This document shows positions 27,534 to 41,670 of a stretch of 48,732 bases of DNA, one piece after another (the stretch's first letter is position 1; each line of letters opens with the position of its first letter). Under the pieces are notes generated by a model. The model was not told the DNA's origin. It was given only the letters and a program-made list of their open reading frames with translations, and did not search any database. Origin of the DNA: Candidatus Methanophagales archaeon (GTDB lineage: Archaea; Halobacteriota; Syntropharchaeia; Alkanophagales; Methanospirareceae); contig JAGGRR010000017.1 of NCBI GenBank assembly GCA_021159465.1, positions 1 through 48,732 of the forward strand. Reading direction: 5' to 3'. The position numbers were made by a program, and so were the translations under genes.

Positions 27534-29951
27534 TTATTTCCTTCTCCTCAGCACGAGGTATGCAATTGCGAGCAAGCCTGCAATGGTGAATACCGAAGCA
27601 CCGAAACCTGGTGTTGGCTTTGGTGTGGGCGTAGGTGTTTCTGGTGCTGGTGTTGCTGTAGCCGGTGCTGGTGTAGGCGTTTCTGGTGCTGCAGTTGGCG
27701 CTGGCGTAGGTGTTACTCCAGTTGGTAGCGGTGTGGGCGCAGGTGTTGCACCTGGTGCTAATATCTCCACTGTTACTGTATCTGTATTGCCATCACCATC
27801 ATCTGCTTCAAGCGTATATGTTCCAGGTTTCACACCCGTAGTGTCAATCGTAGCTTCGAACACTCCTTCTTCTGGAGTAGGCCATTCTACTTCCGCTATT
27901 CCTACAGGTAAGTCCATAGGTCCCGCGAAAGTGGAAATCGTTATTAGCGTATCAGATTCGCGGTTCGTTGTTCCACTTACGTACAATGGTTCACCAACTG
28001 TCACTGTCTCTACCTGATTAAACCGAACATATGCAGGCTCTAGTTCAAAGGTCAATAGTACGAGTAGATCGTCACTTCCTGCCCTGTCAATAGTACAGTC
28101 CTGGATTATTGATAATATCTGTGCTTGATCTTTACCCCTAATATCGCCAAACATTTCGGCTTCGATTTCCCCTGCTCCAACACTTTCCGTAAAACCGGCG
28201 TACTCACCATCACGCCCGGGCGAAAGAACCAGTGCTAACCACATACCGGTATCCAGACCTTCGGTCATTGTTATATCCTCGTCGAATTCATCGTTCTTGT
28301 CCACTGACGATGCTATTATCTTAAGCCCGTTTTCTATACTTGGTTTATCCGCACCCCTGGCATATCCTTTGGGTCCTATAAGGATTATATCCACATTGTC
28401 CACACCGGTCGCTGTACCCTCTATCGTATAGTCGTCACCTTCAGCAATTACTTTCCTCGGCTGTGTCGCATTGAGTGCACCACTGACTAACCTTATACTC
28501 GTCTTACCGTCTTCATCTTCACTCTCGTAGGTCTTTACTTTATCCCAGTTATCCTTCGTCACAAATTTTGGATCAATGAAAACATCAATTGTGTATGAGC
28601 CTGTGGTCAACCCTTCTGTCTTCCATTTCACCTCGAATTCGTTGTTCTCGTCTACTGCCTCCTTAAATACTTTATCCGCATCTTCTATAACTATGTAAAC
28701 TTTATCACCCGCGCTTATAGCTCCTTTTATTTTTACTTCTTCGCCAATCACCGCAGTTGATGGTATATCAAAAGTTACCTCTATCTCTGTTACCTCTACG
28801 TCCACGTCATCATCGTCCTTACTATCCACTATCTCACTGTCTTTTACAAATTCTATTTCTTCGGTAAGTTCCTTGTCTTCCGTCATAGGCGTATCATACA
28901 CGTGTATTGTATATGTCCTCTCATCTGCATTTGTTGTACTGATCTTGACATCTGCGATACCATCACTACCTGTCTTTATCCATGCTGCCAGATTCGGCGC
29001 GTCTTTTGAAATCACTTCCTCTCCTGACAGTTTCTTAACATCGCCCGCCATTTTTATCTCCGGCGGTTCGTCTGTATCCACGCCCGTAACTGTAAGATAA
29101 TAGTAAGCCCTTGGGTTGCCTCTAATCTTTAGAACGATGTCCTCACCTTTAACTACTTCTTCTTCCACTGCCTCTATCGAAAGTTCCTCACTGCATAGCC
29201 TGAATTCATACTCCGGTGATGAGACATCCAGTAGATTACAACTTTCTTTATCTGTCTCTATTACAACCCTGTACTCGCCGGTGTCCATATCCTCTAAGTC
29301 TATTGCATCAGAATATGGTGGAGCTTTGGTAGTCCAGATAGGAGTTAAGTCAGTAACAAAGAATGTTGTGGAAATTGCAGGAATATCACTGAGACTTACA
29401 CCATCTATGGATTGAACTTCTGTATCGTCCGGGTCATAAAGTTTGATATCAACTTTCGCACTCGGAATCTTCCCGCCAAAGTTCGGCTCTATTTTGAATA
29501 CTATCTCAGAACTGACTGGAACACTTTTTCCCACCACTGAATCCTGCTTTATATTATTTAATATTACATCACCCGTTATCTCTGGTTCGGCAATGTATAT
29601 GAGTTTACCATCATATTTGGCACCGCCACCAACGCACTTATATTTACCTTCTGTAACTGACGGAACAGTCCATCCTTTAGCATTTACTGTTATTGGAGAC
29701 ACACCTTCGGTAGCTGTATCTTTGACACCTTCAAGCTTGAAATCAGGGTCTCCGGCATCACCATATCTACTATTACCATTTGTATCGAACTTCAGACCCT
29801 GTTCACCAATGTATACAGTATCATTGGCGTCTATCTCGTTAGCTGCTTGTCTTCCCACCGCCACAGGGATTATTGCTGCAAATACTAACGTCAGTGTAAT
29901 CGCCACTATTGCAAGCCCTGTTATCGCTTTTACTCTATTCTTAGTATCCAT
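27534..29951 (-). CDS. Large cell-surface (S-layer-like) glycoprotein candidate with signal peptide and PGF-CTERM anchor signal
   Basis: 805 aa. N-terminal signal/TM is AITGLAIVAITLTLVFAAIIPVAVG. The body is acidic and rich in beta-strand-type sequence. The C-terminal Pro/Thr/Ala linker is APGATPAPTPLPTGVTPTPAPTAAPETPTPAPATATPAPETPTPTPKPT. The end is PGFGASVFTIAGLLAIAYLVLRRRK. Confidence 0.8.
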   Translation of the reverse strand: MDTKNRVKAITGLAIVAITLTLVFAAIIPVAVGRQAANEIDANDTVYIGEQGLKFDTNGNSRYGDAGDPDFKLEGVKDTATEGVSPITVNAKGWTVPSVTEGKYKCVGGGAKYDGKLIYIAEPEITGDVILNNIKQDSVVGKSVPVSSEIVFKIEPNFGGKIPSAKVDIKLYDPDDTEVQSIDGVSLSDIPAISTTFFVTDLTPIWTTKAPPYSDAIDLEDMDTGEYRVVIETDKESCNLLDVSSPEYEFRLCSEELSIEAVEEEVVKGEDIVLKIRGNPRAYYYLTVTGVDTDEPPEIKMAGDVKKLSGEEVISKDAPNLAAWIKTGSDGIADVKISTTNADERTYTIHVYDTPMTEDKELTEEIEFVKDSEIVDSKDDDDVDVEVTEIEVTFDIPSTAVIGEEVKIKGAISAGDKVYIVIEDADKVFKEAVDENNEFEVKWKTEGLTTGSYTIDVFIDPKFVTKDNWDKVKTYESEDEDGKTSIRLVSGALNATQPRKVIAEGDDYTIEGTATGVDNVDIILIGPKGYARGADKPSIENGLKIIASSVDKNDEFDEDITMTEGLDTGMWLALVLSPGRDGEYAGFTESVGAGEIEAEMFGDIRGKDQAQILSIIQDCTIDRAGSDDLLVLLTFELEPAYVRFNQVETVTVGEPLYVSGTTNRESDTLITISTFAGPMDLPVGIAEVEWPTPEEGVFEATIDTTGVKPGTYTLEADDGDGNTDTVTVEILAPGATPAPTPLPTGVTPTPAPTAAPETPTPAPATATPAPETPTPTPKPTPGFGASVFTIAGLLAIAYLVLRRRK

Positions 29952-32036: not shown

Positions 32037-34772
32037 CTATTTTATCCCCCCTCTCTTTCCTTCTTCCTTTATATCAAGCGACAATTCAGGCAGTTCCATC
32101 TGTTCCTGCTCTTGCTCCTGCCCCTTACCTTTGCCTTGACCTTGACCCTGACCCTGTTCTAATTCTAACTCAGATTCGCCAGCTTCTATCATGCCCTTCA
32201 ACTCACGCAATGAGGATGACATCTCCGCCAGCGGTTCCCCGATAGCTCTTATCCCTCTCGCTGCTTTCATACTATCTTCCCTTATTCTTGAGAGCTCACT
32301 TTCCGCTTTTGTTATATGCCTTATCACCGCGGAGGTAGTCTCTTTAGAGGGTATCGCGCCGAGGAATTCCGTCGCCTTCTCCACCACTACCTTTATATCG
32401 CTACTGAAACTGTTTGATATCTCCTCTATCCTGTCAAGCAATATCTCAATATCCCGTATCGCATCATCTACCATTCGCAGCATCTTCACTGCCTTGTCGC
32501 CTGCGGGCGGTTTGATACCTTTCAATCGCGCAGTAAGGTCATCAACCTGGGTTTTTAACTGCCCGAATCCCCTGCTCGCTTCTCTTGTCCACCGTTTCAG
32601 CTTCTCCATGCTCTTGCCCGCTTTCTCCAGTCCATGCACCAGCATCGTCAGGCTCGCTATTGAGTAGTTGTCCGGGATTCCCAGATTCTTTATCCCCTCT
32701 GCAACGTCCAGCCCGGTAAGTAAATCATCAAACATCTTCAAACACTGTGCAAGCACCACAGGCGTATTATTCCAGATCGCTTCCGGCTCGATTAACTCAT
32801 AATTCCTCCAGAAATTCGTCACTGCATCCCTGTTCTTCTCTTCCGCGCCCGGAGTATATCCTATATTGGTAATAATGGCGAACGGCTTGCTTGTGCCATA
32901 GAATAAAGAGTGATGCCTCTGTAATCTCGCGAAGTCACTCTCCTTATACGCCTGCTCCAGCCATTCCAGCTCTCGCATCCGCGGTGGCAAACCCGGTCCC
33001 GGCGCCCATGGCTGTAACCCAATCATCAGAGTGTATATAGCGAAACTATGTGCTCGCGCGGGCGTATCCAGCTTCAGTACATCTGCATCCTTCGCAAATC
33101 GCTCGGTCACCATACTCTTGAATGCACCGCCTCCCAGCCGCGCATCATCAAAATTGTCCGCACGCGTACTCAGTACCGCGATGAAATGCCCGAGCTTCTC
33201 CTCTTCTTTCATTATGTTCCCCCGTGCATCCACCTCCAGGAATCCATAATCATGCAGTAGCTCGATATACCGCGATGCCAGCGTGCTTTCAATCGAATGC
33301 CGGTAGTTCAACATCGGATTGAATATGATATCACCCTCGTTTATCGGCGCATGAGTCCAGCGGAAATACTCGTCCTCACGACCCAGGTGTTCCATAATCT
33401 CCTTGAATGACATCTTCTTCATGTCTTCTCTGCGCTTCTTCAGGCTCTTCACCTCTTCCTCCGAGAGCTCTATCTGATGATAACTCCTTGTATTCTGCGG
33501 CGTCGTTATCTCCCGCAATAGCCTGTTCTTCAATGCATCCAGCCGTTCTAATCTCCGTTCCATCTGCCTCTTCTCCTCCTCCGCATCGCTCACCCGGACC
33601 TCGAGGTCAAAGACCGCTTCCTTCAACTCACTCAATTTCTTACGTGCTCGCTCCAGTTTCGTCTTACCTTCCTCCACCGCCGCGAGATTCACATGCGTGA
33701 ACAGTCCTACCCCTTCTTTTGATTCGTAATCCTCAATTACACGCTGAGCTTCCCTTATACGTGCTTCGTATCGCTCCAGTTCACCCCGCTGCGATTCTAT
33801 CTTGCCCTGTATCTCCGAGATTCGCGCTTCTATCTCCACCAGCTTCTCTCTCACCACCGGTATCTCGTCCTCCACCTCATAATACAGGAACAGTTTCTCT
33901 GTTGGGAATACACACTCGTAATAGCCCATGGTATCAAATCGGTTCTCATACCCCCTCGCTCTGTTCTGCAGGTCGTTGAGGTCCAGCCACTTCCCCCGCA
34001 TCTCCACCTTACCCCCTGGTAAGAATCCGAGATCGAGCAGGAACCTGGGTATCGCCCTCTCCAGTTCCTCATCCCTGTTCTGACCCTGAAGGTCTCTACC
34101 CAGGAGGAAGAAGAGTTTAAATGGATTTGAGTAATTCTTATCCTCAATTATTATCTCCTCGCTGTGCGACATGAGGAAATGGAGCTCTTTCAGTGTTCCA
34201 AGCGCATTTGCAGTTGGTAACGCTGATTCCTTACTCGAGGGCAGTATCCCTATCCCGAAGATCACGGGCTCCGAACCGAACTGCTTCGATATCCAATCCC
34301 GTACATCTATTGCAACATCCAGGACCATGCTCGAGCCAGTGCCACCCCCAAAAGCACAGACCATAATGATGAAGAAGTCCTTACCACCCGTTCTGTTCCT
34401 TAGTTCCGATGCTGCCGCACCTATCGCACTGAATATCCTCTCACGGTGCACATTATACATCGCCCTGCCATATATACGATGTTGCCCGCAGCCCGCACCG
34501 GCTGCCGATAGATACGGGTCTGGTAACCACTGGTTTACATTCTTCATCAATATCGTGTCCGGTCTACTGAGAATTATCTTCCTCCGCTCCTCTATCTCAG
34601 TACATGCGTTCGCTGATGCCTGGTCGGTATCAATAATCAGAAACTCCTCGTTCTTCGGCACTTTACCCGTACTACGCTTCAGCATTCGCAATATGTTATT
34701 CACAATGAAACTCCCCTGCCCTCCTATCCCTATTACAATCCGATTTACTGTATCCTCACGCAACTCCACCAT
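32037..34772 (-). CDS. Large (911 aa) tubulin/FtsZ-superfamily GTPase-domain protein with long coiled-coil and helical C-terminal extension
   Basis: Motif order matches tubulin/FtsZ. G1-like IVIGIGGQGSFIVNNIL (nt 34710-34730). LIIDTD. T3-like AGAGCGQHRIYGRAMY. Signature loop FIIMVCAFGGGTGSSMVLDVA (GGGTGSS = nt 34329-34349, checked on the nucleotide sequence). IFGIGILPS. Charged heptad-rich sequence follows (aa ~300-450, e.g. REKLVEIEARISEIQGKIESQRGELERYEARIREAQRVIEDYE). The low-complexity tail is ELELEQGQGQGQGKGKGQEQEQEQ. Confidence 0.75.
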   Translation of the reverse strand: MVELREDTVNRIVIGIGGQGSFIVNNILRMLKRSTGKVPKNEEFLIIDTDQASANACTEIEERRKIILSRPDTILMKNVNQWLPDPYLSAAGAGCGQHRIYGRAMYNVHRERIFSAIGAAASELRNRTGGKDFFIIMVCAFGGGTGSSMVLDVAIDVRDWISKQFGSEPVIFGIGILPSSKESALPTANALGTLKELHFLMSHSEEIIIEDKNYSNPFKLFFLLGRDLQGQNRDEELERAIPRFLLDLGFLPGGKVEMRGKWLDLNDLQNRARGYENRFDTMGYYECVFPTEKLFLYYEVEDEIPVVREKLVEIEARISEIQGKIESQRGELERYEARIREAQRVIEDYESKEGVGLFTHVNLAAVEEGKTKLERARKKLSELKEAVFDLEVRVSDAEEEKRQMERRLERLDALKNRLLREITTPQNTRSYHQIELSEEEVKSLKKRREDMKKMSFKEIMEHLGREDEYFRWTHAPINEGDIIFNPMLNYRHSIESTLASRYIELLHDYGFLEVDARGNIMKEEEKLGHFIAVLSTRADNFDDARLGGGAFKSMVTERFAKDADVLKLDTPARAHSFAIYTLMIGLQPWAPGPGLPPRMRELEWLEQAYKESDFARLQRHHSLFYGTSKPFAIITNIGYTPGAEEKNRDAVTNFWRNYELIEPEAIWNNTPVVLAQCLKMFDDLLTGLDVAEGIKNLGIPDNYSIASLTMLVHGLEKAGKSMEKLKRWTREASRGFGQLKTQVDDLTARLKGIKPPAGDKAVKMLRMVDDAIRDIEILLDRIEEISNSFSSDIKVVVEKATEFLGAIPSKETTSAVIRHITKAESELSRIREDSMKAARGIRAIGEPLAEMSSSLRELKGMIEAGESELELEQGQGQGQGKGKGQEQEQEQMELPELSLDIKEEGKRGGIK

Positions 34773-34780
34773 CCTATCCT

Positions 34781-35221
34781 CTATACCTCCTTCTCCCTCG
34801 CTTCATAGTCTGATATCCTTCTCTTTATGTCGCTCATCTCCTCATCGAAGTGTTCTATCTCCACCCCGCTGCCTCTTATCTCACTCTCCATCCTCGTAAC
34901 TGCACTATCTATGCTCCTTGCGGTAGCTACCAGCTTCTTCGCTTCCTTCTCGCCCCTTAACCATATCACAATGCCCGCCAATCCCAATACAATGCCCATC
35001 GCCACTATCGCATATATAACAACAGAGCGAGCAGATTCTGATAGAGATGATAGAAGTTTCTCCCGGTATTCATTCAATGCGAAAGCTAAAGCGGCTAATA
35101 TAACGCCCATGATGGGCATGAGAAGCAACATCTTGTCCACTTTCATTCGCATCAACATCAACACTACTTCCACAACCATCACAGACGCAACGACGAGAAA
35201 AGCTATGCTCTGGAGTTCCAT
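34781..35221 (-). CDS. Cluster protein 3: small 3-TM membrane protein with a cytoplasmic charged helix
   Basis: 146 aa. Hydrophobic helices are IAFLVVASVMVVEVVLMLM, LLLMPIMGVILAALAFAL and VVIYAIVAMGIVLGLAGIVIWL. The tail is KKLVATARSIDSAVTRMESEIRGSG ... RRISDYEAREKEV. Its stop lies 8 nt before the tubulin-like gene start, with AGGA in the gap. Confidence 0.65.
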   Translation of the reverse strand: MELQSIAFLVVASVMVVEVVLMLMRMKVDKMLLLMPIMGVILAALAFALNEYREKLLSSLSESARSVVIYAIVAMGIVLGLAGIVIWLRGEKEAKKLVATARSIDSAVTRMESEIRGSGVEIEHFDEEMSDIKRRISDYEAREKEV

Positions 35222-35300: not shown

Positions 35301-36578
35301 TTAGCTTAGAGCTGAATCTGATCTTATATACTTTAGCCGTTCTGAATCATAGCTCAACCTCGAAAGAGCATCAGAAGCGAGAAGTCTGTATTTGCGTACG
35401 AAAACGTCAGTGCTCTCTTCTTTCGCTATCGCTCTCAATTCCTCTACCTCGCTTAGCTTATCCCTCGACCAGTATTCCACAGGGTATGCATCTGTTCCCG
35501 GGTTCTCAGCCTGTATCTCCGTTTCCAGCTCGAATATCTGCTTATAAAGCTTCTCCAGCAATGCTACTGTTAGTTTCATCAGTGAATTACCATAGCTCAG
35601 TAACTTTGGCATCTGTGACGGCAACATGCATCCCTCTATCCTATCCTTCAGCTCCTTCACCTCAGCATCATCCGATATCTCTGCCGCTACTCCTGCCAGT
35701 ACGAGTACGTCCGCTTTATAACGTTCAAATTCATCACTCAACATCGCACTCAACTGTACAACCACATTCTTCAATAATTCCACCGCGTTATCGTAATTAC
35801 CATGCTCTATGCTATGCTCTGCGAGCTTTATATCTGTCCTGACCCTGGCAGTATCTGCATTCACTCGCTCACGCGCTATCGCTTCTAACTCCATCGCACT
35901 CTTCACGCATATCCACAGTGATTCTTCTATGAGGGAGATCACTTCGTTCATGAACATAGCGAGCTCAAGCAGTTCCTTCTCTATATCCAGACCTATATCC
36001 TCCAGTTTCTTCTCCATCTGCTCTATTTGTGGACCTATATCCAGACCCTCTTTCCTGAGCTCTCTCAGTGCTATCAAATACTCACTGCATCTATCCTTTA
36101 ATCGCGAGCAGAGCACCATTTCGTGCCGCTCAGTTATCTCATGGAGCATCTTATCCACCCACTCAACATCAGCAAAGACCACTCTTCTCAGTTGCGCACT
36201 GTTCATCCTCAACTGCCCGGTTATCTTACATCCGAGTTCTGATAAGCCGCCTTTCACTTTCTCCAGATCTGTTCTGAACTCCTTTGTACTTATCCGATAC
36301 TTCTCTTCGAAATCACGCAATATTCGCATCTCCTCCATATATCGGTTTGCAATTGCCCGGATGTCCCGCTCCATTACCTGTTCCCTCACACTCCTCTTCC
36401 TTACTGCGACAAGGTATCGCACAAGGAACGAGACACCGATCATAGCAGGGATGAAGATCAGGATGATGGTGATTGCGAGGTCAGAGCCGGTATTGAATAA
36501 TATGAAGATAGCAATAGCAATCAAAGCTAAGAATGCCAGTGGTACCAGTATACTTACAGTTATACTATATCGTTTCAT
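35301..36578 (-). CDS. Cluster protein 2: membrane-anchored (2 TM) protein with a ~350-aa all-helical / coiled-coil cytoplasmic domain
   Basis: TMs are ITVSILVPLAFLALIAIAIFILF and LAITIILIFIPAMIGVSFLVRYLV, followed by long charged helical sequence. The track start at 36584 is TTG. I prefer the ATG at 36578 (MKRYSITV), which overlaps the upstream gene's stop (36565) by 14 nt. Confidence 0.7.
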   Translation of the reverse strand: MKRYSITVSILVPLAFLALIAIAIFILFNTGSDLAITIILIFIPAMIGVSFLVRYLVAVRKRSVREQVMERDIRAIANRYMEEMRILRDFEEKYRISTKEFRTDLEKVKGGLSELGCKITGQLRMNSAQLRRVVFADVEWVDKMLHEITERHEMVLCSRLKDRCSEYLIALRELRKEGLDIGPQIEQMEKKLEDIGLDIEKELLELAMFMNEVISLIEESLWICVKSAMELEAIARERVNADTARVRTDIKLAEHSIEHGNYDNAVELLKNVVVQLSAMLSDEFERYKADVLVLAGVAAEISDDAEVKELKDRIEGCMLPSQMPKLLSYGNSLMKLTVALLEKLYKQIFELETEIQAENPGTDAYPVEYWSRDKLSEVEELRAIAKEESTDVFVRKYRLLASDALSRLSYDSERLKYIRSDSALS

Positions 36579-37458
36579 GTGCAAGCCCCCTTAGCTCTCG
36601 CAGTCGTTTCAACTGCTCGAACCTGTAAACGAAGAGATTTGTTATCGCTGCTATATTCCGCTTTGTGGTACAGACTGCCAGATAGCATTCCTTTGTATAC
36701 ATAAGCATGAACTCCTCCACCAGTTCCTTATCCACTCGCTCTTCCCTGACATAATACTCAGGAACACGCAGGAATGTAATACCCCGTTCGCTGCTTAGCG
36801 GGGCTTCTGCGATGCTTAGCTTCTCCATGGATACCCGAATGAGGGTTCGGAGGTCGAGCGGTTTATGGCTCAGAAATGGCAGGATATAGCCAGCAAGTCC
36901 CTTCGTGAGCTCAGAAGCCCTTGATAGTGCTGCATAGCCCGGCTCGTCACTGAACGAGATAATGCTTAATAGTCTGTCTATATTCATTGCCGCTGTTTTA
37001 TCTCTCACTCCCGCCAGGATGTCCACGATACACGATGCTATATATCGGTTATAACGTGGATAATACCGTTCGAAGTTTGGAAGATGCGCTATCCTCTGGT
37101 TATCAACAATTATGAAGCTATTGATATATTCTTTCAGCTTCTCCAGTGTATAGAACGCTTTTATTAAGTTCTCGCTCTTCTGACGCCGCATCGCAGGCAG
37201 AACACCAACAAACAGCGTTTTTATACCACTCTCTGATAGCATTGCCGCTGCCCGGGATATCTCATCACCGTCATCGAGTTCTGAGATCACAAAAGCGAAA
37301 TCAGCTCCCTTTTCTCGACTTATTCTCGCCTTATTCCACTCTTTATCACTCCTTAACCTGATTACAATCGGTTTATCCCGCCTTATCTCTTTATACTCCA
37401 GCACTGAGTTGAGTATTGCAGTTCCTGAAGACCCTATTCCTATGAAGAAGTATGCCAT
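36565..37458 (-). CDS. Cluster protein 1: FtsZ/CetZ-like protein with a degenerate nucleotide-binding loop (putative pseudo-GTPase)
   Basis: 297 aa. The N-terminus FFIGIGSSGTAILNSVLEY resembles the FtsZ/CetZ G1 strand-loop. ADFAFVISELDDGDEISRAAAMLSESGIKTLFVGVLP aligns by eye to aDmVFItaGmGGGTGtGaaPv.A..ak..giLtVgvVt.P, with GGGTGxG replaced by ELDDGDE. INSFIIVDNQRI resembles vDtlIviPNdkL. AAMNIDRLLSII resembles the T7 region iNvDFaDv. The T2/T3 segment appears to be missing. Confidence 0.5.
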   Translation of the reverse strand: MAYFFIGIGSSGTAILNSVLEYKEIRRDKPIVIRLRSDKEWNKARISREKGADFAFVISELDDGDEISRAAAMLSESGIKTLFVGVLPAMRRQKSENLIKAFYTLEKLKEYINSFIIVDNQRIAHLPNFERYYPRYNRYIASCIVDILAGVRDKTAAMNIDRLLSIISFSDEPGYAALSRASELTKGLAGYILPFLSHKPLDLRTLIRVSMEKLSIAEAPLSSERGITFLRVPEYYVREERVDKELVEEFMLMYTKECYLAVCTTKRNIAAITNLFVYRFEQLKRLRELRGLAHETI

Positions 37459-37506: not shown

Positions 37507-38484
37507 ATGAAAAGTGGCAGCATAGCTATAATGATGTCCAGGCTTATGCTCATGCTTATGCTTATATCCATACTGCTGCTGGGTTATACGCTACCGGTAG
37601 CAGGCTCGGACGAGTTAAAGAGGAGTTTGCTACGCGATATAATATCAATGGATAAAACGGAGTTATTTAATAATTACGGCGAGCTGGCGCTTGCAAAGGC
37701 GAAGACACAGGCAGTGATTCAGGGCATGCCTGGCTATGAAGTGACCGCGAAGACCAGAAACTGGGTGAACATCCTCATTGAGATTATCAATGACTTTGAA
37801 GCAATGACTGCCCTGAGCGAGAATGAAGAGCCATCATATCATATAGGAGCCATCAGGAAAGCAGAAGCGATCAACAATTCTATATATGAGTTGAGGAGAT
37901 ACGAGACACCGGAAAGAGAGGGGATACCCATGCTTTTAGAACTCGCACTTAAGCGTTTTTACCGAAAAGAGGGGTTCTTCTTTCAGAATATCGCGGCTAA
38001 CACGGGGGAGACAAGATTGAAGATCGAATACGAATATATAAGTTCAAACGCATATGCATTGGGAGGGATGCCCAGCGACGCCACGCGAATGGAGTTCGAG
38101 GCGAGGCGCGATGAGCGTATATATAACAGGGATATGAATCGAGCTAAGGAGTATATAAACGCCTCAGAACTACACCTGCACAAAGCCATGAACTCCCGTT
38201 CTGCATTCTTCGGCGCTGCATTCATGCAGATAATAAAAGCACGCGATTCGTTCGAGCAAGCGAAGGAGTTATATGAGAAGCATAAAGATAAAGAGCTGGA
38301 GAACGTGAAGGTAAGGGAAACAGAGATAGAAGCTGTTTACCGCAGATTGATGCTCGATACACTTGAGGTCGTTGCATTATATCTCATTGCCCTATCTCTA
38401 ATTACCGGTATCCTATGGATGAAGTTCATGAGATGGCATGGCGAGCTGGATGACACGATGCTGGGTGAGGAGCTCATTGAGTAA
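37507..38484 (+). CDS. Cluster protein 6: signal-peptide protein with a helical extracytoplasmic domain and a C-terminal TM anchor
   Basis: 325 aa. N-terminal signal is MSRLMLMLMLISILLLGYTLPVAGS. An alpha-helical, charged body of ~270 aa follows. The C-terminal TM is VVALYLIALSLITGILWMKF, followed by an 18-aa acidic tail. Confidence 0.7.
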   Translation: MKSGSIAIMMSRLMLMLMLISILLLGYTLPVAGSDELKRSLLRDIISMDKTELFNNYGELALAKAKTQAVIQGMPGYEVTAKTRNWVNILIEIINDFEAMTALSENEEPSYHIGAIRKAEAINNSIYELRRYETPEREGIPMLLELALKRFYRKEGFFFQNIAANTGETRLKIEYEYISSNAYALGGMPSDATRMEFEARRDERIYNRDMNRAKEYINASELHLHKAMNSRSAFFGAAFMQIIKARDSFEQAKELYEKHKDKELENVKVRETEIEAVYRRLMLDTLEVVALYLIALSLITGILWMKFMRWHGELDDTMLGEELIE

Positions 38485-38531: not shown

Positions 38532-40973
38532 ATGAAAGGAAAAAATCGGATGATTACTATTGCACTTCTGATATGCGCAGGTATGATGATGATAATTACT
38601 ACATCCACAATAGAATGCGCCGGTGCATCATCTGCTATTTCAGTAACTCCTTCTACTGTGAACATATTTTTCGATTCTCCCACAAAGGATACATTCACAG
38701 CAGACAGGACTGTAACAATAACCAATACCGGTGAAAACGCAACCAATGTGAGTATCATACCAAGTTATGATTACATTATTATTACACCGCGTGAATTTAC
38801 GCTCAACAGTGGCGAATCACGTCAAACCACAATTGAAGCAGATAAAAGCGCAGAGGAAGGTTCATACACTGTCCATATAAAAACCGATACTGATACCGAG
38901 ACCAGTATCACCGTCAATATAATCTACTGTGCGAAGATTACAGTGTCTACATCGCAATATCCTATTGATTTTGGTGAGGTTGCCAGCACCAGCACTGTAT
39001 CAAAAGAGATTACTTTAAGTGAAGAGTACGGGTACAAAACCCTGAGTGATGTGACAATAACACGAATTTCGGGCGAGAATGACTGGGTTAAACCATCCCC
39101 GAGCAGTGGTATCACCGTCTCATCATCCCAAGATAAACATATTAGATTCACACTCACGCCTGGACCACCTGATTACAGTAGACGCGATAACAGATATACG
39201 TGGAAGTTTAGCATTAGAAGTGGTAGCCGGTACGTAGAACCCGCTACAATAACAATCGAAGCCCGGATAATGAGACCGGCGAAGCTCGGTGAAGTAGCAC
39301 ACGCGAAAAAGTTGAATCTCAAGTTCGATAAGCCACGGGGAACCGTCATGGAGTATCATAGGTATACCTATCTGGCAATAAAGAACGAAGGCGATGAACC
39401 CATGACAGTAAGGGTCACCCGCCCACCACCCTTAGGTGGCTATATTCATGTGGATGCACCCAGTAAGGTTACTGTCGCCGGGAGGGATACCAAAAAACTC
39501 AAACTCCATATTACTGCACCATACGATGCACCTGAAGGCACCTATAAAGGTATATTACATTTAGACGCTGGCAAGGCGGGTAAGGCTGATGTGGTCATAA
39601 GTGTAGTGGTGATATGGCCAGTGGATTTCAACATCTCGTCCTCTTCGCCCTATTTCTCATATCCGCCACTCTCTATAGACTTTGGCTCCTTACAACTGAA
39701 GGACCGGGGATATGAGCAGCGAAGACTGAATCTCACACTTACTGAGTACTATCGCTATAAGCCCGTCAGGAACTTGCGGCTCTCAACAGAGGGTGAATAC
39801 AGCAACTGGTTAAAGGATAGGCATGATTTCGCACTGATTCCACCCGGAGAATCGAGGAACATCACTATTGTGATACAGCCGGGACTGGAAGCGGTACCTA
39901 AGCACTATTCCTGGACGTATTATCTCAGTGCGCGTGAGATAAGTGCCAAGCGAGTACAGATAAGAGCGAAGATCGTGCCCCTGAATATCCCTGAGATGAT
40001 TAAATACCTGGATGCATTCAGAGAAAGCCAGTTGCATCGAAGCTATCCCTCATCGGAATATATAATATCAAATGGGACAGAACTGCTGCAGGATATAGAG
40101 CGTAGCGAGATAGGAGTGGAGGACTGGCGTAAAATACCCGTGTTGATAAGAGCAACACTATCCTTATTAGATGCTTTGAACAACAGTATTATGCATAGTG
40201 CTAACAGAGATTATGACCATGCAGTTGAGAACTTATTGGCTGCTTCGGTCTCCACATCCACCATCGACTCGAATTCATTACTGAATAATGACCGCATCTT
40301 TGGGTATGCAACCGAGATCGCAGCCAGCGCGGACAGGACAACCCGGGAGGTAGCGAGAGAAGAAGCGAAGATGCTTGAGTTACGTGCATGGAGTGTAAAG
40401 AAAGCAGTAGAGCATGCCAGGGATGATATAAGCAGGTTAAAAGAGGATGAGAATGTGCTTGAATCCGCGTTGTGCTATCAACATGCTGCTACACTCTATG
40501 GACTGCTCAATGAGCGACAGAAGAGGCAGGAATGCATCTATGAGAAGTCCAAGATGATGGACTGGCATGATGAACTGGTTAGTGATGCAACAGACCTCCG
40601 CATAAGGGCAGAGGGTATCATCTCAGATAGCAGAGAGAGAGACCTCGTCAGACTCTGGAACAGATATCTGCTCCTGAACCCTTATAATTATGATACTTTC
40701 TCCGCCAGTTATGAAACCGCAGCGAGATACTTTGAGAGGGCATCGGATAAATACAGGCTGGCAGGTGAGTCTTTTCTATACCGAGACACCATATCCGAGT
40801 TGAAAGAATTGGAGGCAGAGAGGAGCAGTATAATCTCTTTATTCTTCATTTCATGCATACTCTATGCCATCATCTTCTTATATGCGCTGAACCGGATAGT
40901 CTGTGGCACGATGGCGTATTTAAAAGATACTTACGAGCGAGAGATAGGGAACATCATGGTTAACGCCGGATAG
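38532..40973 (+). CDS. Cluster protein 7: 813-aa envelope protein with a signal peptide, several beta-sandwich (Ig/CARDB-like) modules, a helical region and a C-terminal TM anchor
   Basis: The signal is ITIALLICAGMMMIITTSTIECAGA. Four repeated module openings read as follows. ISVTPSTVNIFFDSPTKDTFTADRTVTITNTGENATNVSI. ITVSTSQYPIDFGEVASTSTVSKEITL. YLAIKNEGDEPMTVRV. IDFGSLQLKDRGYEQRRLNLTL. A helical region of ~290 aa follows, then TM IISLFFISCILYAIIFLYAL. Confidence 0.7.
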   Translation: MKGKNRMITIALLICAGMMMIITTSTIECAGASSAISVTPSTVNIFFDSPTKDTFTADRTVTITNTGENATNVSIIPSYDYIIITPREFTLNSGESRQTTIEADKSAEEGSYTVHIKTDTDTETSITVNIIYCAKITVSTSQYPIDFGEVASTSTVSKEITLSEEYGYKTLSDVTITRISGENDWVKPSPSSGITVSSSQDKHIRFTLTPGPPDYSRRDNRYTWKFSIRSGSRYVEPATITIEARIMRPAKLGEVAHAKKLNLKFDKPRGTVMEYHRYTYLAIKNEGDEPMTVRVTRPPPLGGYIHVDAPSKVTVAGRDTKKLKLHITAPYDAPEGTYKGILHLDAGKAGKADVVISVVVIWPVDFNISSSSPYFSYPPLSIDFGSLQLKDRGYEQRRLNLTLTEYYRYKPVRNLRLSTEGEYSNWLKDRHDFALIPPGESRNITIVIQPGLEAVPKHYSWTYYLSAREISAKRVQIRAKIVPLNIPEMIKYLDAFRESQLHRSYPSSEYIISNGTELLQDIERSEIGVEDWRKIPVLIRATLSLLDALNNSIMHSANRDYDHAVENLLAASVSTSTIDSNSLLNNDRIFGYATEIAASADRTTREVAREEAKMLELRAWSVKKAVEHARDDISRLKEDENVLESALCYQHAATLYGLLNERQKRQECIYEKSKMMDWHDELVSDATDLRIRAEGIISDSRERDLVRLWNRYLLLNPYNYDTFSASYETAARYFERASDKYRLAGESFLYRDTISELKELEAERSSIISLFFISCILYAIIFLYALNRIVCGTMAYLKDTYEREIGNIMVNAG

Positions 40974-41112: not shown

Positions 41113-41670
41113 ATGAAGAAGTTGGTAGTGGCTATTATTGCTCTGGCTTTAATAGGAGTAATGGCAGGCTGTGTGCAGAAACCAGAAGTGACGCCGCCGC
41201 CAGAGGCAACACCTACAGTGACACCAAAAGTAACACCAAAGGTGACGCCTGCATCAACACCAGTGGAAGTAAAACCACAACCTCAGGTGAAGACGAGTTG
41301 CGATATGTGTCATAAGAGGGAATCAACAGCGAATTTGAAAGCTCATGTGGAAGGTGGACTGCTGGTGAATGGTAAACCTGGCTGTTTTGACTATGCAGGC
41401 AAGTCGAATCTTGCGAGTGGCTGTCATGGTCGTAAGAATGCCACTGTGCATACTGTTCATCCCTCAACAGTTGGATGTATAGTATGCCATGGCAAGATAC
41501 CGACGATACCGAAGAAAGGACCAGGAGGTACGACCTGTGAGGAATGTCACGGCTATCCTGAGCCATTAAAGCCGAGCAAAGGGAATCTTGTGAATATACA
41601 TCTTTCAAGGGGTAAGGACTGCACAGTTTGCCATGTCGGGGAGATATCTCAGATACATGGTCTGAAGTGA
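41113..41670 (+). CDS. Small multihaem c-type cytochrome, probable lipoprotein
   Basis: 185 aa. Signal plus lipobox-like LIGVMAGC. Pro/Thr-rich linker TPPPEATPTVTPKVTPKVTPASTP. Four canonical CxxCH motifs (CDMCH, CIVCH, CEECH, CTVCH). One additional CH (ASGCH) has a distant upstream Cys. Confidence 0.85.
   Translation: MKKLVVAIIALALIGVMAGCVQKPEVTPPPEATPTVTPKVTPKVTPASTPVEVKPQPQVKTSCDMCHKRESTANLKAHVEGGLLVNGKPGCFDYAGKSNLASGCHGRKNATVHTVHPSTVGCIVCHGKIPTIPKKGPGGTTCEECHGYPEPLKPSKGNLVNIHLSRGKDCTVCHVGEISQIHGLK

What the first reader, a model, noticed from the sequence alone, without database searches (positions are those of the whole stretch)
36565..37458. FtsZ/CetZ-like protein in which the GGGTGxG nucleotide loop is replaced by ELDDGDE - a probable pseudo-GTPase partner
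Seen in sequence: the N-terminal FFIGIGSSGTAILNSVLEY, the segment ADFAFVISELDDGDEISRAAAMLSESGIKTLFVGVLP (nt 37261-37284 encode SELDDGDE), INSFIIVDNQRI and AAMNIDRLLSII follow the FtsZ secondary-structure and motif order. The glycine-rich T4 loop has become acidic. The T2/T3 region appears to be deleted, since only ~50 aa separate the G1-like and T4-equivalent positions. Inference: nucleotide binding is probably lost while a T7-like N-x-D element is kept. This is the pattern expected for a regulatory or capping subunit acting on the large GTPase encoded three genes downstream. The homology call rests on by-eye alignment and is the weakest link in the model of the system.
Basis: inference. Interest (0 to 1): 0.65.

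Follow-up and report, generated by a model that had tools for sequence, protein, structure and literature searches.

The report
Tubulin-like protein without a GTP pocket
This gene of a methane-oxidising archaeon (ANME-1) encodes a genuine tubulin/FtsZ-shaped protein that has lost the loops that hold GTP. It is kept under selection beside membrane proteins and a GTP-binding tubulin relative, so it is most likely a non-enzymatic part of an uncharacterised membrane-bound cytoskeletal machine.

Summary
ORF 36565-37458(-) encodes a 297-aa protein with a confident two-domain tubulin fold (pLDDT 87). Its best solved-structure matches are CetZ (TM 0.72-0.74), then FtsZ.

- **What is lost.** Compared with full-length relatives that keep GLGGGTGSG, the T2-H2-S3-T3 segment (about 60-90 aa) is deleted. 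The T4 loop is three residues shorter and reads SELDDGDE.
- **Origin.** The short form is one clade (100/100): ANME-1 plus Syntrophoarchaeum. It is nested inside a GTP-competent "CetZ-like" family, and dN/dS is 0.1-0.2.
VDNQRI is the S6/T6 base-contact motif, not T7. At the column of the CetZ1 catalytic residue E218, this protein has Arg162. 34 of 42 orthologues keep E or D there.
- **Context.** The gene always sits with a 2-TM helical protein and two extracellular Ig-like proteins.
- **Link to the 911-aa protein.** This is an FtsZl1/Tubulin_2 GTPase. It is adjacent in about two thirds of lineages. Across 79 class genomes the two co-occur strictly: 43 both, 29 neither, and 7 discordant, all in genomes under 90% complete.

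A partner or cap role is plausible but unproven. This scan already reported an orthologue in another genome (e1-950124) with the same conclusion. I class it as a new variant of a known kind, of moderate interest.

The parts
36565..37458 (-). pTub: 297-aa CetZ-like tubulin-superfamily protein with a degenerate GTP pocket (P0001)
37420..37440 (-). T1-like loop G7-I-G9-S-S-G12-T. G7, G9 and G12 are present in all 41 orthologues that cover this region.
37339..37356 (-). Junction (about residues 35-40) where the T2-H2-S3-T3 segment of full-length relatives is missing.
   Evidence: Alignments. The model goes from S2 (31-34) straight to an H3 remnant (39-48).
37261..37284 (-). T4-equivalent loop S59-ELDDGDE66. 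It is three residues shorter than GLGGGTGSG and has net charge -5. Most orthologues read SGLGDS-N.
37096..37107 (-). S6/T6 motif V118-D-N-Q. D119 is invariant and N120 is kept in 41 of 42 orthologues. It aligns with FtsZ IPND.
37021..37053 (-). H7 core Y136-N-R-Y-I-A-S-C-I-V-D146, with N137, Y139 and D146 invariant.
36967..37002 (-). T7 loop and start of H8 (D153-L164): N159-I-D161-R162. R162 lies at the column of CetZ1 E218.
36568..36951 (-). C-terminal (activation-type) domain S7-S10 plus a terminal helix (284-295). It includes the near-invariant block SRASELTKGL.GY..P.
35301..36578 (-). 2-TM protein with a roughly 360-aa helical domain inferred to be cytoplasmic. Its ATG overlaps the pTub stop by 14 nt. 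It is present next to pTub in every locus that extends that far.
34781..35221 (-). 146-aa 3-TM protein, which always travels with FtsZl1.
32037..34772 (-). 911-aa FtsZl1/Tubulin_2 protein: GTPase N-domain (GIGGQG, GGGTGSS), a coiled-coil hairpin and a helical C-terminal bundle.
   Evidence: PMC2875224.
30942..32036 (-). 364-aa bitopic membrane protein, the last gene of the operon.
37507..38484 (+). Divergent 325-aa protein with a signal-like N-terminus and a C-terminal TM anchor.
38532..40973 (+). 813-aa extracellular protein with Ig-like repeats and a C-terminal TM anchor.

Best explanation
The gene encodes a cytoplasmic CetZ-like member of the tubulin/FtsZ superfamily. It descends from a GTP-binding ancestor.

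**What changed and what stayed.** One deletion removed T2-H2-S3-T3, the gamma-phosphate and Mg sensor. The glycine-rich T4 phosphate loop then decayed. The rest of the fold was kept: T1, the S6/T6 and H7 'top' surface, T7/H8, the C-terminal domain and a terminal helix.

**Shown.**
- The fold.
- The deletion.
- The decay of T4.
- The single derived origin.
- Purifying selection.
- The synteny.
- The co-occurrence with FtsZl1.

**Inferred.**
- The protein no longer binds or hydrolyses GTP in the canonical way.
- It acts as a static structural or adaptor subunit.
- It is probably made in fixed ratio with the 2-TM helical protein encoded by the overlapping next gene, which would tether it to the membrane.
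- Through that protein, and through the short cytoplasmic tails of the two divergently encoded extracellular Ig-like proteins, it would form part of an envelope-spanning assembly.
- It would work together with the GTP-competent FtsZl1 protein, using tubulin-type longitudinal surfaces to bind, cap or organise it.
For: **Fold and family.**
- Model pLDDT 87.4.
- Foldseek top hits are CetZ at TM 0.71-0.74.
- The profile of full-length relatives matches CetZ1 and CetZ2 at about 1e-25, against FtsZ at 1e-16.

**Loss of the pocket.**
- T2/T3 is absent and T4 is shortened and degenerate in all 42 short-form sequences.
- The window's loop has net charge -5.

**Derived state.**
- The short forms are one clade (100/100), nested in the full-length family and sister to a Methanosarcinales protein that has GLGGGTGSG.

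**Still functional.**
- Intact ORFs in 41 species-level genomes.
- dN/dS of 0.11-0.19 against orthologues of 49-75% identity.
- The T1, T6 and H7 residues are invariant.

**Membrane tether.**
- The pTub stop and the next gene's start overlap by 14 nt.
- The neighbour has two N-terminal TMs.
- It is present in every locus that extends that far.

**Envelope link.**
- Homologues of the 325-aa, 813-aa and 427-aa proteins flank GTP-competent relatives in distant archaea.

**FtsZl1 link.**
- Adjacent in Syntrophoarchaeum and in about 20 ANME-1 loci.
- Kept elsewhere in the genome where it is unlinked.
- Across 79 class genomes: 43 have both, 29 have neither, and 7 are discordant, all under 90% complete. 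Among the 28 high-quality genomes, 22 have both and 6 have neither.
- Distant FtsZl1 operons also carry a second, full-size tubulin.
Against: - No direct test of nucleotide binding, polymerisation or any protein contact was possible.
- T1, T6-Asn and the H7 residues, which normally touch ribose and base, are invariant. Some ligand binding therefore cannot be excluded.
- FtsZl1 is unlinked in several lineages (L014-L016, L038, L041, L043, L050).
- Co-loss of usually adjacent genes can be a single deletion, and related genomes are not independent observations.
- Relatives with the same 427-aa, 325-aa and 813-aa neighbours have no FtsZl1. They carry another tubulin-like gene instead.
Confidence: 0.6

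Rival explanations
1. One reading: pTub is a GTPase-activating cap. Its T7 face inserts into the GTP site of FtsZl1 and triggers hydrolysis. Its own dead pocket then blocks further subunit addition.
For: 34 of 42 orthologues keep E or D at the CetZ1-E218 column, usually preceded by Asp. FtsZl1 has intact T1 and T4. The two genes co-occur strictly.
Against: - The window's own protein, and its three closest relatives, have Arg at that column. Four other orthologues have A, G, K or N there.
- FtsZl1 carries its own invariant T7-like WLDLNDL after H7, so it need not borrow one.
- No interaction data exist.
Confidence: 0.25
2. pTub forms nucleotide-free homopolymers. In the window's sub-clade, the acidic T4 loop would stand in for the phosphates, and Arg162 on the T7 face of the next subunit would pair with it. 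The result would be a constitutive longitudinal contact.
For: E60 and R162 occur together in exactly the same four sequences and nowhere else. The loop charge is -2 to -5 in these four, against about -1 elsewhere. Both longitudinal faces (T1/T6/H7 and T7/H8) stay conserved.
Against: The co-variation is a single evolutionary event in one clade. No oligomer model or experiment exists. Whether residue 60 lies close to the T7 face of a neighbouring subunit was not measured.
Confidence: 0.12
3. The pocket still binds a nucleotide or nucleoside, for example permanently bound GDP or a base, without hydrolysing it. This would resemble a structural nucleotide site.
For: G7, G9 and G12 (T1), D119 (S6/T6), and N137, Y139 and D146 (H7) are invariant, and N120 (T6) is kept in 41 of 42, despite only 50-60% overall identity.
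Against: The whole T2-T3 segment is gone. T4 is three residues shorter and lacks the GGGTG backbone cradle. In this protein the loop carries five acidic residues, which would repel phosphates.
Confidence: 0.15
4. pTub belongs only to the [813][325]<>[297][427] envelope module. Its adjacency to FtsZl1 is a historical accident without direct interaction.
For: That four-gene module is constant, while the FtsZl1 trio separates from it in at least seven loci. Homologous modules exist without FtsZl1.
Against: Presence and absence agree perfectly in the 28 high-quality genomes. Both genes are also retained where they are unlinked. The same gene order is seen in Syntrophoarchaeum.
Confidence: 0.2
5. 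The gene is a decaying relic (pseudogene-like) with no function.
For: Catalytic motifs are lost. The gene is missing from some complete ANME-1 genomes (G012 and G024).
Against: dN/dS is 0.1-0.2. The reading frame is intact in 41 species. About 45 positions are invariant, and the fold is predicted with confidence.
Confidence: 0.02

Closest known systems
CetZ (archaeal tubulin-like cell-shape proteins; PDB 4b46, 4b45, 3zid)
   Same: CetZ gives the best structural matches (TM 0.71-0.74). It is also the best profile match for the parent family (about 1e-25). Both have the two-domain fold with a C-terminal helix.
   Different: - pTub lacks T2-H2-S3-T3 and the GGGTGxG signature.
- It has Arg at the E218-equivalent position.
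- It is about 60-100 aa shorter.
- Its gene neighbourhood is different.
- The own genome has no canonical CetZ; PF00091 finds only FtsZ1, FtsZ2 and FtsZl1.
'CetZ-like' / non-canonical tubulin-superfamily groups of Halobacterota and Altiarchaeota (Santana-Molina et al. 2023, PMC9871819; Brown & Duggin 2023, PMC9856176)
   Same: The full-length relatives found here come from Methanosarcinales and Altiarchaeales MAGs and from metagenome contigs of unknown organism. They fit that description, including neighbourhoods rich in coiled-coil genes and quasi-tandem tubulin copies. The short clade is nested among them.
   Different: Those proteins keep T1-T7. The papers do not describe a GTP-pocket-deleted subgroup or its link to FtsZl1; term searches of both papers found no mention. 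I matched my relatives to the papers' groups by description only, not by shared accessions.
FtsZl1 / Pfam Tubulin_2 (Makarova & Koonin 2010, PMC2875224)
   Same: The 911-aa operon partner fits FtsZl1 exactly: an N-terminal FtsZ-like GTPase, a long coiled coil and a helical C-domain, with membrane-protein neighbours.
   Different: pTub itself is not an FtsZl1. hhalign of its family against the FtsZl1 N-domain gives a probability of 1%.
Non-catalytic members of tubulin-type pairs (from my own knowledge, not tested here): the structural, non-exchangeable GTP site of alpha-tubulin, and the plant ARC3 FtsZ-like domain that regulates FtsZ without GTPase activity
   Same: The idea is the same: a tubulin or FtsZ-fold subunit without catalytic turnover that modulates a GTP-competent relative.
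   Different: Alpha-tubulin still binds GTP. ARC3 is a eukaryotic chimera. Neither has a deletion of the T2-T3 segment.

Membership tests
Tubulin/FtsZ superfamily (PF00091 fold) | Two-domain fold: a Rossmann-like GTPase domain, helix H7, and a C-terminal domain | tested here: met
   AlphaFold pLDDT 87.4. Foldseek E 2e-14 and TM 0.72 to CetZ, with 252 matches below E 1e-3.
Tubulin/FtsZ superfamily (PF00091 fold) | Score above the Pfam gathering threshold | tested here: not met
   The window protein scores 18.2 bits against a cut-off of 33. Of 20 aligned homologues, 18 match at E below 0.01, best 1e-17.
Tubulin/FtsZ superfamily (PF00091 fold) | Signature T4 loop GGGTG(S/T)G | tested here: not met
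   The loop reads SELDDGDE here and SGLGDS-N in most orthologues, three residues shorter.
Tubulin/FtsZ superfamily (PF00091 fold) | T2 and T3 loops (gamma-phosphate and Mg sensing) | tested here: not met
   The segment is deleted in all short forms and present (GGFGKNP) in full-length relatives.
Tubulin/FtsZ superfamily (PF00091 fold) | T1 GxGxxG, T6 Asn and the H7 base-contact residues | tested here: met
   G7, G9, G12, D119, N137, Y139 and D146 are invariant, and N120 is kept in 41 of 42.
Tubulin/FtsZ superfamily (PF00091 fold) | Acidic catalytic residue in T7 (FtsZ D212, CetZ1 E218, alpha-tubulin E254) | tested here: not met
   Arg162 lies at the aligned column; 34 of 42 orthologues have E or D there. 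An adjacent Asp161 remains, so a one-residue shift in register cannot be excluded.
Tubulin/FtsZ superfamily (PF00091 fold) | GTP binding, GTP hydrolysis and GTP-dependent polymerisation | not testable with these tools
   This needs the purified protein.
CetZ family (canonical) | Closest by structure and by profile | tested here: met
CetZ family (canonical) | Branches inside the supported canonical CetZ node, and carries the CetZ consensus residues of Brown & Duggin 2023 | not tested
   No canonical CetZ sequences were in my tree. The parent group looks like the 'CetZ-like' groups that lie outside the canonical node in PMC9871819.
FtsZl1 / Tubulin_2 | Tubulin_2 N-domain followed by a coiled coil and a helical C-domain | tested here: not met
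   P0001 has no PF13809 hit. hhalign against the FtsZl1 N-domain gives probability 1%. The protein is only 297 aa and has no coiled coil.

The most novel reading that the evidence does not exclude
In the window's sub-clade, the dead GTP pocket may have been rebuilt into a nucleotide-free polymer interface. The five-acid T4 loop would mimic the missing phosphates. An arginine that replaced the T7 catalytic acid on the next subunit, or on FtsZl1's partner face, would pair with it. The result would be a tubulin-fold filament or cap that assembles without any nucleotide. E60 and R162 co-vary perfectly (4 of 4 sequences), but this rests on one evolutionary event.
Probability: 0.12. Interest if true: 0.8.

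Novelty: new variant of a known kind. Interest (0 to 1): 0.52.

Why it matters
Tubulin-superfamily proteins are defined by GTP-driven assembly. A subfamily conserved across orders and under selection, which has removed the gamma-phosphate sensor and the phosphate cradle yet kept both longitudinal faces, would be a natural pseudo-enzyme of the cytoskeleton.

It also gives the FtsZl1 system a concrete, testable partner set. FtsZl1 has had no known function since 2010. The set comprises a dead tubulin, a membrane tether and extracellular Ig-like proteins. It occurs in ANME-1 archaea, whose cell biology is almost unknown.

Tried and rejected
- **The search for related loci with the wide alignment A2.** It failed because there was no conserved stretch. 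I repeated it with A1.
- **hhalign of the pTub family against the FtsZl1 N-domain.** There was no meaningful similarity, so pTub is not a truncated paralogue of its operon partner.
- **PADLOC and NCBIfam scans of all seven cluster proteins.** Only coiled-coil noise (SMC, JetC, LmuB) on the 911-aa protein. I rejected a defence-system reading.
- **Bacterial-type promoter and terminator scan.** Uninformative for an archaeon.
- **The ANME-1 pTub HMM against the full-size tubulins of distant FtsZl1 operons.** It does not hit them, so orthology between them is unproven. The tree places them on long branches inside the same polytomy.
- **The 'split tubulin' idea.** I considered that FtsZl1 lacks T7 and borrows it from pTub. 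I weakened this after finding an invariant WLDLNDL after H7 in FtsZl1.
- **Multimer co-folding.** Not possible with the tools offered.
- **Makarova & Koonin's archaeal family 'A1' (MA2713).** I could not test whether it corresponds to this family.
Full report
**1. The observation**

The minus-strand ORF 36565-37458 encodes 297 aa. Nucleotides 37261-37284 encode S59-ELDDGDE66.

On its own, the protein scores below the Pfam threshold for PF00091 (18.2 bits against a cut-off of 33, E 0.003). It also matches Aquifex FtsZ only weakly (E 0.006). That alignment nevertheless places SELDDGDE exactly on GLGGGTGTG.

With homologues the signal becomes firm:
- A 20-sequence profile finds FtsZ at E 1.2e-6.
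- 18 of the 20 sequences hit PF00091.

An AlphaFold model built on that alignment is confident (pLDDT 87.4, pTM 0.88). Its best PDB matches are the three solved CetZ structures (E 2e-14 to 1e-13, TM 0.71-0.74), followed by dozens of FtsZ structures. The match covers both domains.

**2. What has been lost and what has been kept**

*Relatives.* An exhaustive HMMER scan of 1.8 billion representative proteins found only 38 relatives. The closer ones are about 300 aa. The rest are 370-540 aa and carry all the classical motifs:
- T1: GxGQ(A/C)G
- A T3-like GGFGKNP
- T4: GLGGGTG(S/C)G
- S6/T6: VDN
- A T7-like (V/I)-I-D-x-x-D

*Deletion.* Aligned with these, the window protein lacks 60-90 residues between S2 and H3. 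Its T4 loop is three residues shorter. In the model, S2 (31-34) runs straight into a short H3 remnant (39-48) and then S4 (52-60). What is missing is therefore T2, H2, the edge strand S3 and T3.

*T4 across orthologues.* Across 42 short-form orthologues, the T4-equivalent loop is mostly S-G-L-G/S-D-S-N. The strongly acidic ELDDGDE (net charge -5) is peculiar to the window's own lineage.

*Conserved residues.* These positions stay conserved:
- G7, G9 and G12 (T1): invariant.
- D119: invariant. N120: kept in 41 of 42.
- N137, Y139 and D146 (H7): invariant.

*The 'VDNQRI' motif.* It aligns with FtsZ 'IPNDKL' (hhalign probability 97.8%). From my knowledge of the family, this corresponds to tubulin 'DNEA'.

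*The real T7.* T7/H8 is D153-L164, placed by the model's H7 (129-152) and H8 (160-167). The profile of full-length relatives aligns its 'v-i-D-v-r-D-i-v' with CetZ1 'VVDSSEII'. From my own knowledge, E218 in that string is the catalytic residue mutated in the published GTPase-dead CetZ1.

*The catalytic column.* Residue counts at that column among the 42 orthologues:

| Residue | Count |
|---|---|
| E | 28 |
| D | 6 |
| R | 4 |
| A, G, K, N | 1 each |

The four Arg sequences are the window protein and its three nearest relatives. An adjacent Asp161 is retained, so a one-residue register shift cannot be excluded.

*Conclusion.* This protein lacks the phosphate-binding half of the pocket, and at the aligned column it also lacks the catalytic acid. 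The family as a whole lacks the former but mostly keeps the latter.

**3. It is a derived, selected state**

*Distribution.* A scan of one genome per species found the short form in 41 loci. All come from ANME-1/Methanophagales-type MAGs, apart from one record titled Nitrosotalea, which I did not check. The nearest is the G60 ANME-1 MAG at 97% identity. The 37%-identical, 299-aa relative P0101 is from Candidatus Syntrophoarchaeum caldarius. It is also T2/T3-deleted, but its T4 is less eroded (GLGGEIGGT).

*Tree.* In a maximum-likelihood tree rooted on the genome's own FtsZ1 and FtsZ2:
- ANME-1 plus Syntrophoarchaeum form one clade (100/100).
- That clade is sister (92/90) to a full-length Methanosarcinales protein (P0099, with GLGGGTGSG).
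- It is nested within the full-length family.

One deletion in an ancestor of these orders is the simplest reading.

*Selection.* dN/dS against orthologues of 49-75% identity is 0.11-0.19. dS is saturated for the distant pairs.

*Other tubulin-family genes.* The genome's own PF00091 complement is FtsZ1, FtsZ2 and the 911-aa protein. There is no canonical CetZ.

**4. Neighbourhood**

*The operon.* The minus-strand operon reads pTub, 427 aa, 146 aa, 911 aa, 364 aa.
- The 427-aa gene's ATG overlaps the pTub stop by 14 nt.
- The gaps between the later genes are 79, 8 and 0 nt.

*Partner proteins*:
- **427 aa:** two N-terminal TM helices and a long helical domain. I infer this domain is cytoplasmic from the positive-inside charges.
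- **146 aa:** three TMs.
- **364 aa:** bitopic.
- **911 aa:** matches Pfam Tubulin_2 (E 1.3e-24) and has GIGGQG and GGGTGSS. Its model shows a confident N-domain, a coiled-coil hairpin (291-423) and a C-terminal helical bundle. This is the FtsZl1 architecture of Makarova & Koonin 2010.
- **325 aa and 813 aa** (divergently transcribed): each has a signal-like N-terminus, a single C-terminal TM and a short tail. The 813-aa protein also has Ig-like repeats.

*Two stable modules*:
- [813][325]<>[297][427] is found in every locus with enough DNA.
- [146][FtsZl1][364] forms a second unit.

The two modules are adjacent in Syntrophoarchaeum and in about 20 ANME-1 loci. In at least seven loci nothing of the FtsZl1 trio lies downstream. 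In all five such genomes I tested, the trio sits on another contig.

*The first module is ancient.* HMMs built from the ANME-1 325-aa, 813-aa and 427-aa proteins hit neighbours of GTP-competent full-length relatives in unrelated metagenomic contigs. The E-values were 5e-28, 4e-106 and 2e-29. Those contigs carry a different second tubulin-like gene instead of FtsZl1.

*Distant FtsZl1 operons.* Two operons, one from an Altiarchaeales MAG and one from a JGI metagenome contig, also contain a full-size tubulin with an intact T4. In the second, the gene order is [433 Tub][430][128][872 FtsZl1][396][345], which mirrors the window's operon.

*Presence and absence.* Across 79 genomes of the class:

| Pattern | Genomes |
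|---|---|
| Both pTub and FtsZl1 | 43 |
| Neither | 29 |
| Only one (all under 90% complete) | 7 |

Among the 28 high-quality genomes, 22 have both and 6 have neither.

Two caveats apply. Related genomes are not independent. Adjacent genes can also be lost in one deletion. Retention of both genes where they are unlinked argues for real coupling.

**5. How it most likely works**

*Shown.* It is a tubulin-fold protein that lacks the canonical phosphate-binding apparatus. It is under selection, is encoded with membrane and envelope proteins, and co-occurs with FtsZl1.

*Inferred.* It is a non-enzymatic subunit that uses tubulin-type surfaces to bind partners.
- The overlapping 427-aa gene suggests a stoichiometric membrane tether.
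- The extracellular Ig-like proteins with short cytoplasmic tails suggest an envelope-spanning assembly.
- FtsZl1 is the likely nucleotide-driven element.

It fits the window protein less well, because that has Arg162. FtsZl1 also has its own invariant T7-like WLDLNDL.

*A more speculative reading.* In the window's sub-clade, the acidic T4 loop and Arg162 may form a charge-swapped, nucleotide-free longitudinal contact. E60 and R162 co-occur in exactly the same four sequences. This is a single evolutionary event.

*What cannot be excluded.* Residual nucleoside binding through the conserved T1, T6 and H7 residues remains possible.

**6. Comparison with known families, and novelty**

*Closest solved family.* It is CetZ.

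*Parent group.* It matches the 'CetZ-like' or non-canonical groups described in Halobacterota and Altiarchaeota, whose neighbourhoods are rich in coiled-coil genes (PMC9871819; PMC9856176).

*Literature.* Term searches of those two papers found no mention of a GTP-pocket-deleted subgroup or of ANME-1. A full-text search for ANME-1 together with CetZ returned no papers. Public annotations call these proteins 'hypothetical', 'CetZ' or 'FtsZ'.

*Earlier finding in this scan.* An earlier follow-up in this scan (e1-950124) reached the same conclusion on an orthologue in another genome.

*Verdict.* It is a new variant of a known kind. It is not a canonical member of any GTPase family, because the defining T4, T2 and T3 features fail the test. 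Interest is moderate (0.52).

Noticed in passing
L055:11314-12591 (-) and L056:10296-11618 (+): Clusters around GTP-competent relatives of pTub carry a second tubulin-like gene (425 and 440 aa). It has a tubulin-style T3 (GAGN..W) and T4 (GGGSGCG or GGGTGNG). Its best PDB sequence matches are eukaryotic beta-tubulins (E about 1e-6), not FtsZ or CetZ. It may be the 'Halo.Tub' group of PMC9871819.
   Followed up: partly
window 33969-33989 (-), FtsZl1 residues 262-268: The 911-aa FtsZl1 protein has a WLDLNDL motif just after its H7, conserved across all 19 aligned homologues down to 29% identity. The motif resembles the T7 'IDLNDL' of the CetZ-like family. Makarova & Koonin 2010 reported that T6-H7 and later elements could not be identified in FtsZl1.
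   Followed up: partly
L062:3372-4757 (-) and L063:6831-8132 (+): Distant FtsZl1 operons, from Altiarchaeales WOR_SM1_79 and a JGI metagenome contig, include a full-size tubulin-superfamily gene (461 and 433 aa) with an intact T4. The two are homologous to each other (E 8e-18) and fall on long branches in the tree.
   Followed up: partly
genomes G012 and G024 (same family as the window's genome): Two nearly complete ANME-1 genomes (92% and 98%) lack both pTub and FtsZl1. Half of genus g4 also lacks both. The system is therefore dispensable and lost as a unit in some lineages.
   Followed up: partly
window 41113-41670 (+): A 185-aa protein with a lipoprotein-like N-terminus and several CxxCH haem motifs (a multihaem cytochrome) lies immediately beyond the cluster.
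   Followed up: no
window 27534-29951 (-): An 805-aa surface-protein-like ORF with a signal sequence, a Pro/Thr-rich stalk and a C-terminal TM anchor lies upstream of the cluster.
   Followed up: no
L053:1300-2289 (+): In the Methanosarcinales MAG that carries the closest full-length relative (P0138), a Volactin/MreB-like gene and a CdpA_N gene lie about 8 kb upstream, so several cytoskeletal genes sit on one contig.
   Followed up: no
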